Source: Podarcis vaucheri (Eukaryota). Taken from it: a stretch of 64,000 nucleotides of DNA. Position 1 is the first letter of the stretch, and each line of letters begins with the position of its first letter. The stretch is from NCBI GenBank assembly GCA_965113315.1, contig OZ220363.1, one strand, 5' to 3'. Below are positions 1-32,183 of the stretch, one piece after another. Below the pieces are notes generated by a model. It was given only the letters and a program-made list of their open reading frames with translations. It had not been told where the DNA came from and ran no database searches. A program made the position numbers and the translations under genes.

Positions 1-1504
1 AAACCCCTACTGTGCCTTGGTGACAAGATACTGCTGGCAGTGTTCCCACTTGTGGCAGACAGCTAGTGGTGGGCTAGGAGCGGGACAGGATGCCATGCTG
101 AACTGTTTCCTGGAAAAGGGCTGTTGCGCCAGCCTAAAGCTAGTGCATAAAAACTGAAAACCTCCCTTGCGTTCTTGTCCTGGCTGCTGAAGCCAGCAGG
201 GCTGCAGAAGCAGTAGGGGATCCACTTACTGCACCTTGCAGGCCCCTTTTAGGATTACAGTGCTTGGCTAAATGTATACTTAGCTGGGAGCATGTCCCAA
301 TTGAACTCAACGGGGCTTACCTCTGGAGTAGAAATGTATAGGACAACACTGTAAAATAAGAACAAGAACATTTAAGGCAACATTACCTTCTGCAGAAAAT
401 AAAATAAAAGATTCACAGCCTAGTTTACAACAATGTTTCAAAATGTTATGAAGTTTCCTTGAGTGCATCTGGTGCAAGGATTATTTCTCTTCTTTTATCT
501 GATCTTCTATTATGGGAACTTCTCTCTCTCTCTCTCTCCCCCCCCCCCCCAATTTTTAACATTAATCTGAGAGTTGATGGATTTTATCACCTAAACCCCA
601 AATATACATTGGGGCAATATGTTCATTAAGTCAACCAAAAACTCTCAAAATAAGAAGCAAGCTTTCAAGTTGCCCCAAACTTTTTTTCAGACCTGATGGT
701 GAACAAAGTAGGGGGAGGGATTTGGCTGACCTTGAAACTATGGAGTCTGCATTTAGTCACAGACTTGAAGTAGAATGTGAGAGAAGGTAGCAGACATTAT
801 TAATGAAATTATATTATTATTATTATTAATTATTCTAGTTATTTCACTTTAGCAAATATCTGGACATTTTGATTTTTTTATCAGAATATAAACAAAACAA
901 TATTAAAGAAGTTTCTGATATTTAACATAACATGCACACACTCTCTGTGTACATAAATTGAACATATGACAGACAGAAAAACAAGGGGGAGGTGTGACTT
1001 ACAGTAATATGCTTACACAGAATTAAACAAGACCACTAAAAAGGGATCACAGGGGCTATGCATGTGCCAGGTCCTGATCCAGAAGGGACTCCAGAGTCTT
1101 AGCTTTCTTTCCTTTTTTAAAAAAGTAAGTCACCAGACATTTCTGAAGAAAGTTAGAGCATGAAATGCAGAGGCACTTTGAAGGCTTCTCTGCCATTGCT
1201 AAGGATGCTTAATCACTTAATCACTGTTGCTAGGCTATCAGAAGAAGAAATGCAGACCACTCCCACCTGGGTATCAGTGGGATTGCCCTTTCAGAGGAGC
1301 AGAAAAAGCAGGAGTGGATCATTGTTGCTGACGCTGGATAGAGAAGGATGTTAGGGTGTGTTTGTTTAAACAGTTTCCTTGGTGTCCAAATTATTTCATT
1401 CTCTGCCCAAGTGTGCTGCCTTTACATAATAAAACAACTGGGTGGTTTCCATATGTTCTACTAAAAACTCTTGACATAAATTAGGCTTTCTTCCTGTCAA
1501 GAAA

Positions 1505-3441: not shown

Positions 3442-4266
3442 GAGAAGGCTGTGCATTTTTGTATATTTTTTTCCCTGAAGAGTATAGATATAAACACTAG
3501 CCATTAACCTTAGTCTTAAGGTTAAATCAGTAACATTTTTCATCTGTCAAATTGTGTTGCTTCAAGAAATAGCCTTCCTTCTTTAAAATAGCAAAACAAA
3601 ATTATGAATGCCAATTGCCTACTTTTAATCCTTAAGATTCATCCTTTATGAACACGAAAATATGTATTTTACAGATACAGTTGGGTTAATCAAAGAGACC
3701 TCTCTGCACAGTCCTGTTCTTTTTAAGCATATGAAAGCAAAGATCAATTTTGGAAAGTTTGAAATAAATGGTCAATCTTGAACTAATACGGGTCACCATG
3801 CAGATTTAGTACCTTCATCTAAAATAAATGACATATTCCTCTCAATTTCCCATTCCTAATGCCATTGCATATCCCAGTTTAGCACCCACCTATCTAATCA
3901 AGTTATGCAGTTACTTTTATTGAGATCAGAGTACCTCTGTGCTAATAAGCTAAAGGAGAGTAAATGCATTATATGTATATTTGGAAGTAATCTAATACTG
4001 TCTTTGGGGAGGAAATCCTTCTTAAGTTGACTGCAAAACATAGTCAGACTTTGCAAAAGAAAAGAAAAGAAAAAAGAGGTTAGTTTATGCATTTTACTTA
4101 CTTTGGTAATCTACACATTAATTTTTAATGCAATTGTACAAGCTGTTGCATTTCAGACTTGCGAGGGGGGGGGGAATCTATAGCCATGACTGGGTGACAT
4201 GGTGCATTAATTCAATGTCCTTCACTCCCAGGACCTTTTTAGTTCAGCTTGAAGAAAATAACTTTG

Positions 4267-4920
4267 GACTTCCGGGGTTGACGCGATCTGGGAATGGCGG
4301 ATTCCCTCCGAGCTCCGGAGGGAATCGGCTCAGCAGGGGACGGGTCTTTGCCGTGCCGGCGACACGGGGACCCTTAAAACCGCAGGCGCGGTGCCTGCGG
4401 ACTGAAGACTCGGCGGGTGCCTTAAGCGCCCCCCCTGATTCGCGAAGAGCCTTTTTAAAGGCTGCGGAGGGGATACGGGGGGTGGCGTGGCACTGAGAGT
4501 CCATCGCTACCTCTGCTGAGCGAAGCCGCGAGCCATGACCGGAGAGCGCTGACTTCCTTCCTTGAAATTCGGCTGAAAAAACAACCCGTGAGTAATTTGG
4601 ACTTGGCTTTTAAGAAATTTATCCACTGAATTTGAGACGATCGGGGGATGTGCTAAAAGGAAGTCCGCACCCCCCCACCTTGCAGACGATCTAGAGCAAC
4701 GAAAAAAGAACTAAGCTGGAGTGCCCACCCTGTAAAGGGTGAGTTTTAAAAAAAAAAGACAGTAACTTCCAAGATTTGGAAATTTTGAGCAGGAGAGAGG
4801 AGTGTTGGATGTTTTGTGTTCTGTTGTAAACAACCCCCCCTCCCGGGCCCGGGAGCGTCCTGCTTTGGAGCTGGTTTAAGAAGTGCAGAGTTTGACAGCT
4901 GTCAAAGCTGTCAAACGGAC
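4267..4920 (+). promoter_or_regulatory. CpG-island-like internal promoter/5'UTR of the retroposon
   Basis: High GC and CpG against a CpG-poor background. ETS-like ACTTCCGG at the start, YY1-like AATGGCGG at 4293-4300. Confidence 0.6.
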
Positions 4921-5084
4921 TGTTAATAGTGGAAAATTGCTACCTAAGTTACCTCTGGATTAAAAAGAGTTACAATTGATCTAAAATTGTTGGAAATAAA
5001 GAAACAATAACAAGACAAAGGACTGTTGGGGAAAAGAATACTAAGTAACCAGATTCCCTCTAGAGGGAATTCTGTGGAATTACA

Positions 5085-5681
5085 ATGGCTGTGGATGGAA
5101 AGATACTGGGAGAAATCGAAAGGATGTTCTATTTGGTTGGAATCTTACAAGAGCAGACTACGGCTATGAGTGAACAATTGATGACCTTGACTTCTGAAAC
5201 AAGTAGTTCTGCTGAATGTAACGAGGACCTCAATGAGAAAGAATCCACAGCTGAACCAGAAATGATAATAAAAGAAGAGGAGAAGACAAAACAAGAAAGA
5301 GAAGAAGTGATGTGGGAAAATACAGAGCAGAAGCTGACGCCTGTGGAATACAAACAAGGAGATTATTGGAGCAAATCTACTATAAATCCACGAAAGATGC
5401 AGAAGACGAAAGTGGAGGTCCTGGGAGTCTATGAAATTAAGGAATTTAAAATAAAGAAATATAATCGGGGCCTCCACATAGACTCTGACTTTGATTACCT
5501 TCAAGATTCATGCCTTGTGGAAACTCTTCAGCAGCTGTTTGCAAATATGGGAAGAGACTTTGGATTGATGGTGAAAGAACTCTTTCGAGATGTGACGACT
5601 GGCATAAAGGATTACCAACAAGACCGGCGGAGAGGGACTGAAAGAGACTGGAGGGCCTCGGACGTGAGGAACCCGGGCTAG
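5085..5681 (+). CDS. 198-aa ORF inside the retroposon; N-terminal heptad/coiled-coil pattern and acidic linker; function unknown
   Basis: Longest ORF in the window, good Kozak context (ACAATGG), purine-rich L1-like composition, lies wholly within the TSD-bounded element. Confidence 0.65.
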   Translation: MAVDGKILGEIERMFYLVGILQEQTTAMSEQLMTLTSETSSSAECNEDLNEKESTAEPEMIIKEEEKTKQEREEVMWENTEQKLTPVEYKQGDYWSKSTINPRKMQKTKVEVLGVYEIKEFKIKKYNRGLHIDSDFDYLQDSCLVETLQQLFANMGRDFGLMVKELFRDVTTGIKDYQQDRRRGTERDWRASDVRNPG

Positions 5682-7054
5682 GAACTGTTATTTTGGACAT
5701 GCTTTGGGAAGGGACGCAAACCGGGGATGGGAGGGAGGGAAAAATTAAGTTCTAACAACACTCATGATTATGGGATTTGGTTAAAAAGATCATTATTCAA
5801 GACAAAATGGGAAATCGTTGGAAGGGAATTGAGGTCCAACTTAGAAAAAAATAATTTTGTTTGTTTTTATAAAAGGACTAATATTAAGACAGGGAAATGC
5901 CAATTTGCTGACATAAATTTGGAAATGGGGATGCAAGGGAGGGGGTAGGGGGAAGTCAATGACCAGGGTTAGGAAATAACATTTTCGGGAAAGTATATAT
6001 GTTTGTTGTTGTTTTCTTATTTTCTTTTTTGTTTATGTGTTTATTTGTTTTTTGTGTCTTTGTTTTTGTCTATATAAAATGTGAAAACCCAATAAAAATT
6101 TTATAAAAAAAAAAAAAAAAAAAAAGAAAATAACTTTGATCTGAATGCCGTGGAGGGAAAGAAAGCTACATATGAAATGAGTTTTGCTGGGTTTAGTGTT
6201 GTTTCTTATATACAAGACAACATATGACGATAAACTGCTTTAGCATGCTACTGACGTGGCCGAGGATTAACAGCAGACTACTCTTAGCAGCAGTTGCAGT
6301 CTTACATATACATACACACAGAATTCCCAAACTACTGTCTCTTTTTCCATTGTCACACAGAAGTTGCACATAACATATCCCTTAAGAGTTTAGTCAGGAA
6401 AGAGGTAGCTTCTGATACTTGCTTCTGCTCATAGGAGCGTCAGTGGTCTCACACTTTCTTTGGTTTTGTACAAAAATGAAACACAATTTTCTTGATCATA
6501 AAATTGGTGTACCAGAGTTAGAAAATAAGTACATAATCTTGCAAATAAATGACTGGCTGGGACAACCCAGTCAGATGGGTGGCATAACAATAATAACAAC
6601 AACAATATGTGCTATTTACATCAAACATTCAGTGTTGCACCAACTAATCTGATGACAGGCCACAAACCTAATTTATGTAAGGGCAAAACACAGGCTAAAA
6701 ATGGATTGATTCCCTTGACGTGGCTGTTTGCAAAGCCTGTCTCCTTTTCTTCTTGCAATGTATCCTCTTTCTACCGCAGAGAAACATGATTAGTGGCAAA
6801 ACGATAACTAAACAAACTGAAACATTGGAACACCAGGGTAAGATTAACATTTTCTCTGCTTACACCTCTGAGTTATGTAGTCCATCAACAAGCTTCCTTC
6901 CTTGCTCATCCAATTAAAGGTCTTGAAACAAAATATTTAAAAATGTGAAATAGCTCATTATTTGAATGCTGATGCATTAGGGCAAGTGTTGTGGCATTTT
7001 ATTTATTTATTTCAACTGGAATGTTACTGTTTTGAGTTTTGAAATCTATAAAAT

Positions 7055-31520: not shown

Positions 31521-32183
31521 GGCAGTATGAGGTATGCGGAGAAGAGCGGTGGGAAATGATAGTGGAGAAGAAAAAAGGGTGATAGTAAACTGTCATTCTT
31601 TTACATAATGTGCAAGGTTTTTATGTCAGCATCATGTGGCTGGGTTCTTCATTTGTTTGTTTTCATCGGCAGTGAAAGAGATTGGGGAGCCCAGGGCATG
31701 GTTGGTTGCATTTGGTTGAGTGCAGTGAGTTTTGTTTGTGTGTGAGAGGAAATTATTTGGGGGGGGGGGTTGTTGTTGGGTCAAATTAGCCATATTGATT
31801 TGTATGCTGTTGGGGTGGGGGTTATGTTGTCTTGTTGAACTGTGTATGTAATAAAGGGGAGCCACATTGGGGTGAAGGCATCCTCTTTTGTTTGTCCCCG
31901 TGCTAATTTCAGTTTGTTGGTTAGCTTTCCTAGATGGGCTGTTTCCCATGCAGTTTGGTACCATGTTCACTCCTGACAGGTCCCTCCAGTGTCTAGTTAT
32001 GACACTCCTAGCTGCTGAGAGTAGGTGTCTCATTTGTGCTTTGTTAAAAAAGTGTGCGCTGTTGTCTTGGAAAATATTTAATAGGGCCAGTTCTGGAGTT
32101 GCTTTTCATATCTGTTTCGTTATTTTGCAGATTTCTTGTGGGACTGATGTCCAAAAGTGTTTGATTTGGGGGATGCTGGTGTG
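31521..32183 (-). mobile_element. L1-clade LINE fragment (ORF2 C-terminus + part of 3'UTR), frameshifted
   Basis: Translation HLLSAARSVITRHWRDL resembles vertebrate L1 ORF2 C-termini; possible TTGTTATA flanking duplication; no poly(A). Confidence 0.75.

What the first reader, a model, noticed from the sequence alone, without database searches (positions are those of the whole stretch)
5085..5681. Orphan coiled-coil protein in place of canonical ORF1p
Seen: a 3-4 hydrophobic repeat in residues 7-35 (I7, I11, M14, V18, L21, T25, M28, L32, L35), then an E/K-rich linker and a hydrophobic C-terminal region. I cannot see the RxxNLRIxGIPE motif that opens the L1 ORF1p RRM. Established: L1 ORF1p trimerises through its coiled coil. 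Inference: the protein could co-assemble with L1 ORF1p to steer its own RNA into L1 RNPs, could inhibit L1, or could be a novel fold.
Basis: partly seen in the sequence, partly recalled or inferred. Interest (0 to 1): 0.7.

Follow-up and report, generated by a model that had tools for sequence, protein, structure and literature searches.

The report
Lizard jumping gene's gutted ORF1 protein
A short, very young jumping gene of a lacertid lizard carries a cut-down descendant of the LINE-1 ORF1 protein that has lost most of its RNA-binding core yet is kept open by selection, and it likely uses this stub to latch onto the full LINE-1 machinery that it needs for copying.

Summary
The ORF is real but it is not an orphan. 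It lies in a 1,857-nt non-autonomous element (4267-6123) with an L1-like 5'UTR, poly(A) and a 15-bp target-site duplication; 19 of the 40 best genomic copies are identical over the ORF. The genome holds older lineages of the element, down to about 20-30% protein identity. A profile of these lineages matches lacertid L1 ORF1p at E 9e-12 and the window protein at 3e-24. The match is colinear: internal Met, coiled coil, a decayed NLRIRAVPELE motif, a ~40-codon RRM deletion, CTD remnants. The window's branch lost that motif in a further 22-codon deletion. The frame is under purifying selection (omega 0.57, against 0.18 for L1 ORF1 and 0.78-1.48 in other frames). Constraint concentrates in the N-terminal helix and a C-terminal peptide that ends in Pro-Gly-stop. 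This is a HAL1-type element with a gutted ORF1p. Co-assembly with L1 ORF1p is the likeliest function but has only weak model support (0.49, best control 0.02). No novel fold is seen.

The parts
4252..4266 (+). Left target-site duplication (15 bp)
   Evidence: Identical direct repeat with 6124-6138
4267..6123 (+). Whole non-autonomous HAL1-like element, 1,857 nt, no ORF2
   Evidence: Same ends in sister copies, each with its own TSD: TSD of 15-25 bp found in 28 of the first 30 loci; depth step at both ends in DNA-like runs
4267..5084 (+). 5'UTR, likely internal Pol II promoter; first ~450 nt homologous to the 5'UTR of A/G-rich lacertid L1
   Evidence: nhmmer E 1e-28 to 1e-41 to L107/L119-type L1; E 1e-59 to 1e-80 for most P0029-type L1 copies. 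Promoter function inferred
5056..5067 (+). Palindrome CCCTCTAGAGGG about 20-30 nt before the ATG, with a look-alike in L1 5'UTRs
   Evidence: Seen in the subfamilies printed and in both L1 families; match weak (E 0.003-0.9); role untested
5085..5681 (+). ORF, 198 aa: internally deleted L1 ORF1p derivative, net charge -10
5085..5219 (+). Residues 1-45: N-terminal helix, from the internal Met that opens the ORF1p coiled coil; omega 0.44; L17 and G19 invariant in 29 of 29 cluster representatives
   Evidence: pLDDT 83-95 for residues 11-40
5220..5354 (+). Residues 46-90: acidic E/K-rich linker, decayed second half of the coiled coil
5355..5573 (+). Residues 91-163: remnants of RRM start and CTD. 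A 22-codon deletion near residue 97 removed the decayed NL-x5-PELE motif that older lineages keep; low-confidence structure. Omega 0.67 for residues 46-163
5574..5681 (+). Residues 164-198 and stop: conserved basic tail from the last CTD helix and tail of ORF1p, ending D-V/I-R-x-P-G-stop; omega 0.46
   Evidence: D, R, P and G at -6, -4, -2, -1 invariant in 29 of 29 representatives while the stop codon varies (TGA 15, TAA 12, TAG 2)
5682..6104 (+). 3'UTR; last ~180 nt homologous to the L1 3' end; AATAAA at 6091-6096
   Evidence: nhmmer E 9e-7 to 5e-3; E about 1e-23 with the older-lineage profile
6105..6123 (+). Poly(A) tail
   Evidence: Sequence
6124..6138 (+). Right target-site duplication

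Best explanation
This is a non-autonomous 'half-L1' (HAL1-type) retrotransposon of a lacertid lizard whose single ORF is an L1 ORF1p with most of the RRM and part of the CTD deleted, kept open by purifying selection, and whose protein likely helps its own RNA by docking its N-terminal helix onto the coiled coil of ORF1p from active L1. Shown: architecture, descent from ORF1p, in-frame deletions, selection on both ends of the protein. Inferred: Pol II transcription from the L1-derived 5'UTR; translation; mobilisation in trans by ORF2p of the A/G-rich L1 clade (TSD, poly(A), shared 3' end). Predicted, untested: the nascent stub co-assembles with L1 ORF1p trimers while still near its own mRNA, and so draws full ORF1p and ORF2p onto that RNA. 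Confidence in the identity is about 0.93; in this mechanism, given the identity, about 0.5.
For: Element anatomy. UTR homology to L1. Protein descent: a profile of 35 older-lineage plus 14 third-lineage copies hits L1 ORF1p at E 8.7e-12 among 3,474 sequences, the window protein at 2.8e-24, and reversed ORF1p at no better than 4.5. Profile position 1 falls on the internal Met of ORF1p. DNA profile hits on ORF1 DNA are colinear (E 2e-5). Selection: omega 0.573 against a fixed 1, 2 x delta lnL = 76; other frames 0.78-1.48; about 37 stops expected on internal branches if neutral; up to 10 in-frame gap runs between the window and old lineages. Selection acts along the mobile lineage, which implies a benefit in cis (inference). 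The RNA-binding middle is deleted and the protein is acidic, so the N-terminal helix is the main conserved surface left. Complex model, 2 x L112 ORF1p 55-170 plus window 1-55: median score 0.49, best of 3 controls 0.02, runs agree in at least 89% of contacts, partner pLDDT at least 69. This is weak support. The mark was reached by 51 of 78 solved and 2 of 108 mismatched pairs, but at 0.60 or under by only 5 of the 78 and by all 4 passing mismatches of 180. On eukaryotes it was reached by 39 of 65 solved and 2 of 126 unrelated pairs. Precedents: truncated human ORF1p acts on L1 in trans through its N-terminus and coiled coil (PMC5605252 abstract); L1TD1 binds ORF1p (PMC11925450 abstract); Pol II transcripts need ORF1p for trans-mobilisation (PMC2666806 abstract); multimerisation is proposed for HAL1, HeT-A and Ag-Sponge (PMC5786205 passage).
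Against: The window protein itself shows no significant direct match to ORF1p (E 56; young-clade profile best E 0.5; hhalign 30.8%), so descent rests on transitive homology. Single motif blocks were not significant alone (p 0.06-0.5), and the first profile tests against the more distant L1 family were weak. The heptad signal of the window protein is within chance (42/200). The complex score lies in the range where passes are more often wrong than right. It may only reflect kinship with ORF1p coiled coils, and the tool did not use my alignments. In human cells truncated ORF1p suppresses rather than helps L1 (PMC5605252 abstract). Omega 0.57 is three times that of L1 ORF1 (0.18). Fourfold sites in the tail are also conserved (mean heterozygosity 0.15 over 7 sites, against 0.40 over 3 in the middle), so part of the tail constraint may be on the RNA. 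Copies were found by protein similarity and kept only if the frame was open, which favours intact frames. No evidence of translation was obtained.
Confidence: 0.5

Rival explanations
1. Same identity, but what is selected is translation and the way it ends. The conserved tail ending in Pro-Gly-stop would slow termination (or its RNA would form a signal), keeping the mRNA ribosome-bound and stable, where it can catch L1 proteins. The free protein would matter little.
For: The stop position is fixed right after PG in 29 of 29 cluster representatives while the stop codon varies - but my ORF finder required this end motif. The last ~25 residues, about the length held in the exit tunnel (recalled), are the best-kept part, with synonymous variation at D-6, R-4, L-10 and E-13. 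The middle of the protein tolerates large in-frame deletions. RNAalifold gives a 5-bp stem closing just before the stop.
Against: The N-terminal helix is as constrained as the tail (omega 0.44 against 0.46), which translation alone does not explain. The 2A motif is not met. Single-sequence folding z-scores are -1.4 to +0.1 in 12 of 12 tested. Much of the tail is inherited from the ORF1p C-terminal helix.
Confidence: 0.22
2. Same identity, but the protein works by itself, as a homo-oligomer that binds its own RNA through the basic tail and replaces ORF1p in cis, as assumed for classical HAL1; only ORF2p comes from L1.
For: Long-term ORF maintenance in guinea-pig HAL1 was read this way (PMC3627910 passage). 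A helix at the N-terminus and an R-rich tail are both conserved.
Against: About 40 codons of the RRM are deleted, and the window branch lost 22 more. No folded domain is predicted (pTM 0.21-0.23). Net charge is -10, against +2 for L1 ORF1p. A homotrimer was not modelled.
Confidence: 0.15
3. The protein is a dominant-negative L1 inhibitor, kept because it poisons or diverts L1 RNPs, to the benefit of the host or of the element as a competitor.
For: Truncated ORF1p with an intact coiled coil suppresses human L1 in trans (PMC5605252 abstract). Weak model support for binding.
Against: Selection is seen along successive mobile lineages, not at a fixed host locus. The element needs L1 to spread, and many L1 copies with intact ORF1 frames coexist with it. 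Inhibition could be a side effect of the best explanation.
Confidence: 0.07
4. The ORF is a decaying, functionless remnant that is open by chance or by my ascertainment.
For: Omega is high (0.57; 0.83 among the most distant pairs). Copies were selected for open frames.
Against: The likelihood-ratio test against omega 1 is strongly significant in all three regions (2 x delta lnL 47, 19 and 30). Other frames carry 3-12 stops per sequence on average. Searches that read through stops still returned mostly stop-free copies (147 of 150; 129 of 150).
Confidence: 0.04

Closest known systems
HAL1 (half-L1) elements of mammals (Bao and Jurka 2010; seen only through passages of PMC5753468, PMC3627910, PMC5786205)
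   Same: Non-autonomous L1 derivative with 5'UTR, ORF1-derived ORF only, L1 3' end, poly(A) and TSD; coding capacity kept over long periods.
   Different: The host is a lacertid lizard. The ORF1p has lost its N-terminal extension, about 40 codons of the RRM, parts of the CTD and, in the window branch, the RRM-opening motif, and it has a tail ending in DVRxPG-stop. Whether mammalian HAL1 proteins are similarly deleted I could not check (paper not held).
ORF1p of the A/G-rich lacertid L1 (P0029-type, L211-L235; like lizard clade 1 of PMC5381506: long 5'UTR, little or no spacer)
   Same: Colinear homology from the internal Met through coiled coil, RRM start and CTD end (E 9e-12 via older lineages); shared 5'UTR and 3' end.
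   Different: 198 against about 360 aa; acidic; omega 0.57 against 0.18; no folded RRM or CTD predicted.
HeT-A (Jockey clade) and Ag-Sponge (CR1 clade), ORF1-only LINEs
   Same: Encode only the ORF1 product; proposed to multimerise with the protein of the autonomous partner (PMC5786205 passage).
   Different: Other LINE clades and hosts; not compared by sequence here.
L1TD1 and truncated human ORF1p
   Same: ORF1p derivatives that act on L1 ORF1p in trans (abstracts of PMC11925450 and PMC5605252).
   Different: L1TD1 is a fixed host gene, and the truncated forms are defective copies. Here the stub rides on a spreading element and is selected along its lineage.
2A/StopGo peptides of non-LTR elements (PMC3708506 passages)
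   Same: C-terminal D-V-x-N-P-G look in the window branch.
   Different: The GD(V/I)ExNPG-P motif is not met: one residue shorter, no E, a stop in place of the last P, and N is not conserved.

Membership tests
HAL1-type (ORF1-only non-autonomous L1) | 5' and 3' ends derived from L1 | tested here: met
HAL1-type (ORF1-only non-autonomous L1) | Single ORF derived from L1 ORF1 | tested here: met
   Through older lineages, E 8.7e-12; not direct for the window protein
HAL1-type (ORF1-only non-autonomous L1) | No ORF2 (endonuclease, reverse transcriptase) | tested here: met
   1,857-nt element with one long sense ORF inside it; tblastn with an L1 ORF2p found nothing inside it
HAL1-type (ORF1-only non-autonomous L1) | Amplifies as a unit with poly(A) and variable TSD | tested here: met
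   TSD in 28 of the first 30 loci, and in part of the older loci
HAL1-type (ORF1-only non-autonomous L1) | Mobilised in trans by L1 ORF2p | not testable with these tools
   Inferred from TSD, poly(A) and the shared 3' end
Canonical L1 ORF1p | N-terminal coiled coil with heptads | tested here: inconclusive
   Helix predicted; heptad contrast reached by 42 of 200 shuffles
Canonical L1 ORF1p | Complete RRM with the NLRIxG/AIPE opening motif | tested here: not met
   Motif absent in the window protein and decayed in older lineages; about 40 codons deleted
Canonical L1 ORF1p | Complete CTD | tested here: not met
   Only remnants align
Canonical L1 ORF1p | Pfam Transposase_22 hit | tested here: inconclusive
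   0 of 65 family members hit, but 0 of 5 genuine lacertid ORF1p hit either
Canonical L1 ORF1p | Trimerisation, RNA binding and chaperone activity | not testable with these tools
   Only a heterocomplex model was run
2A/StopGo peptide | GD(V/I)ExNPG-P motif | tested here: not met
   Motif as given in PMC3708506; position -3 is N in 12, S in 11, L in 4 and D in 2 of 29
Novel fold | A confidently predicted globular domain without known relatives | tested here: not met
   Mean pLDDT 48-51, pTM 0.21-0.23, only one confident helix

The most novel reading that the evidence does not exclude
The gutted ORF1p has become a two-part hijacking adaptor. A newly fixed tail ending in DVRxPG-stop stalls the ribosome at termination and so ties the nascent chain to its own mRNA, while the exposed N-terminal helix enters L1 ORF1p trimers. 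That would be a protein-encoded way to break L1 cis-preference, parallel to the SRP9/14-ribosome route proposed for Alu (recalled).
Probability: 0.13. Interest if true: 0.82.

Novelty: new variant of a known kind. Interest (0 to 1): 0.52.

Why it matters
How non-autonomous Pol II elements get round the cis-preference of L1 proteins is open, and the role of the HAL1 protein has been argued mainly from ORF conservation. This family is a natural deletion series of ORF1p, from older lineages with a recognisable RRM start to the window branch without it. It shows which parts stay under selection once the RNA-binding core is gone: the first helix and the last 25 residues. The youngest copies are identical to each other, and L1 copies with intact ORF1 and ORF2 frames exist in the same genome, so a direct trans-mobilisation test can be built from natural copies. 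It also extends HAL1-type elements to lacertid lizards, as far as my searches reach.

Tried and rejected
Pfam on the window protein: two weak hits only. Genome search with PF02994: nothing, and the control rang nowhere, so uninformative. ESM Atlas: no usable hit, recognition 2100, which shows neither novelty nor absence. Search for longer homologues with alignment A2: none among 7,991 scored candidates, weak evidence. The A/C-rich L1 family (L101-L106) is not the parent: no profile hits, only short 3'-end blastn matches. The idea that the ORF start arose de novo from L1 5'UTR sequence, or that the bases just upstream are an ORF1 N-terminal remnant: pairwise DNA tests were mixed or null. It was dropped once the closer L1 family aligned the start with the internal Met; a fusion to the true ORF1 start is not fully excluded. 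RNA evidence: no RNA holder listed. Runs X1-X4 are only guessed to be RNA, come from one sample and hold diverged relatives as contigs, so they say nothing on expression. No conserved RNA structure at the ORF end beyond a 5-bp stem. Fold search was not run because both models are low-confidence. Branch-specific dN/dS (internal against terminal branches) was not obtained, so omega mixes master-lineage change with decay after insertion. The lacertid ORF1p profile against PDB gave generic coiled coils, with trimeric autotransporter fragments first. Earlier scan notes: two unrelated LINE findings, none by sequence.

Full report
OBSERVATION. The ORF 5085-5681 encodes 198 aa. The heptad pattern alone is within chance: 42 of 200 shuffles reach it, against 0 of 200 for L1 ORF1p. 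The C-terminal region is charged, not hydrophobic. AlphaFold with 15 and with 65 sequences gave one confident helix (about residues 3-40) and no folded domain (pTM 0.21 and 0.23).

THE ELEMENT. The ORF lies in a 1,857-nt insertion (4267-6123) with AATAAA, a 19-nt poly(A) and a 15-bp TSD. A DNA search of the own genome gave 1,222 first-look candidates, of which 40 were scored; 19 of the 40 have the top score of an identical ORF. Candidate counts are not copy numbers. Of the first 30 loci, 29 have an open frame and 28 a TSD of 15-25 bp by my finder (one was missed by the pattern, one has an insertion in its 5'UTR). In protein searches that read through stops, 147 of 150 and 129 of 150 (counted by eye) scored copies had none. 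Named relatives of the neighbouring L1 ORF1p are from Podarcis, so the host is taken to be a lacertid.

A DEEP FAMILY. Outside the genome, unnamed Logan proteins match over the full length at 71 down to 25% identity. Using them as queries revealed older lineages in the own genome with the same layout, and a third lineage found by chance in a flank. From the fetched loci 136 open ORFs were extracted. After dropping identical copies and 9 segmental-duplicate sisters, 107 remained, forming 29 clusters at 7% distance, 16 of them with two or more copies. Loci with internal stops or without the end motif were left out of these counts.

PARENT L1. Two L1 clades with intact ORF2 frames were recovered. 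The A/C-rich clade shows no profile homology to the element. The A/G-rich clade shares the first ~450 nt and the last ~180 nt. Within it, the P0029-type family is closer (5'UTR E 1e-59 to 1e-80 for most copies; 3' end E about 1e-23 with the older-lineage profile), but most of its fetched copies are decayed, so the present driver is not identified.

DESCENT FROM ORF1p. Direct tests with the window protein or its young clade fail, and first tests of the older lineages against the more distant L1 family were weak. Against the closer family the older-lineage profile scores E 6e-5 and the third lineage 2e-5. The two together score 8.7e-12 among 3,474 sequences; reversed ORF1p scores no better than 4.5, the other L1 clade no better than 1.7, and the window protein 2.8e-24. 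The alignment starts at the internal Met that opens the coiled coil. It runs through the coiled coil to the RRM-opening motif (copy L139 NLMWKAWPELE against L1 copy L231 NLRIRAVPELE), skips about 40 codons of the RRM in frame, and picks up CTD remnants and the last helix with ELRA. The DNA profile gives the same order (E 2e-5). The older and third lineages share the RRM deletion and the tail, which suggests one origin (inference). Pfam Transposase_22 cannot arbitrate, since 0 of 5 genuine lacertid ORF1p hit it.

SELECTION. A codon model on the 29 cluster medoids (161 of 272 columns kept) gives omega 0.573 against a fixed 1 (2 x delta lnL 76); by region 0.44, 0.67 and 0.46. Pairwise estimates are 0.53-0.60 up to 25% distance and 0.83 beyond, where up to 250 pairs per bin were used. 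The five other frames give 0.78-1.48 and carry stops. ORF1 of 20 autonomous L1 copies gives 0.18. About 37 stops would be expected on internal branches under neutrality. Limits: open frames were required, terminal branches include neutral decay, and the middle aligns poorly across clades. In the tail, D, R, P and G are invariant in 29 of 29, with synonymous variation and a varying stop codon, but fourfold sites are also conserved, so an RNA-level constraint may overlap.

MECHANISM. Selection along a mobile lineage implies a benefit to the RNA that encodes the protein (inference). Pol II transcripts need ORF1p to be mobilised in trans (PMC2666806, abstract). This protein has lost the RNA-binding core and is acidic, so I judge recruitment of full ORF1p through the conserved helix likelier than independent chaperone work. 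A model of two L112 ORF1p coiled coils with residues 1-55 scored 0.49 against a best control of 0.02, with at least 89% contact agreement and partner pLDDT of at least 69. The tool rates this as weak. The mark was reached by 51 of 78 solved and 2 of 108 mismatched pairs, but at 0.60 or under by 5 of the 78 and by all 4 passing mismatches of 180. A relative of ORF1p may pass by likeness, and my alignments were not used. PMC5381506 (passages) doubts that lizard ORF1p is trimeric; its coiled coil did match trimeric adhesin fragments best in PDB. The rivals are selection on translation or termination, a self-sufficient homo-oligomer, and L1 inhibition. The tail resembles a 2A peptide but fails the motif.

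WHAT IS KNOWN. HAL1 elements encode only ORF1p and arose several times in mammals (PMC5753468, passages); guinea-pig HAL1 kept its ORF for 29-44 Myr (PMC3627910, passage); multimerisation with the partner's protein is proposed (PMC5786205, passage). Also seen: passages of PMC8535693, PMC4859970 and PMC3708506; abstracts and outlines of PMC5605252 and PMC11925450. Bao and Jurka 2010 is not held, so my knowledge of it is second-hand or recalled. Seven searches (listings only, apart from the papers named) showed no description of a lacertid or reptile HAL1. Repbase, Dfam, subscription journals and supplements were not seen and may hold it. The names RRM, CTD and HAL1-type, and the Alu ribosome model, are from recall or from those passages.

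VERDICT. A real, selected protein: a new variant of a known kind (a HAL1-type element with a gutted ORF1p), not an orphan and not a new fold. Interest 0.52.

Noticed in passing
window 4266 and 6124-6139; runs X5, X6: Flanking contigs of one sample stop exactly at the end of the left TSD and start at the start of the right TSD. This fits a filled/empty bubble (a polymorphic insertion), but no contig across an empty site was listed, and the sample may be the window's own source.
   Followed up: partly
window 5056-5067: Palindrome before the ATG with a look-alike in L1 5'UTRs; resembles a CTCF core motif from recall, untested.
   Followed up: partly
G000 contig C41: Strongly enriched in ORF1-bearing L1 copies and in segmental duplicates of single insertions; might be a W-like chromosome, untested.
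   Followed up: no
L101-L106, between ORF1 and ORF2: The A/C-rich L1 family has an extra 137-aa ORF in the spacer, open in 6 of 6 copies fetched.
   Followed up: no
L114-L116 and one search list: Many L1 3' fragments share an open frame of exactly 250 aa at the ORF2 end; possibly another short non-autonomous derivative.
   Followed up: no
window about 31787-32171, minus strand: Decayed 3' fragment of ORF2 of the A/C-rich L1 clade; used only as a seed.
   Followed up: partly
P0025, P0028-P0031, P0032-P0035, L211-L235: ORF1p of several lacertid L1 families ends in a conserved LGA(V/T)GG motif after a variable linker; the element's protein lacks it.
   Followed up: no
window 5481-5500 region and L061-L087: A 6-nt repeat inside the ORF expands and contracts in frame, giving DF/DS runs of varying length among subfamilies.
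   Followed up: no
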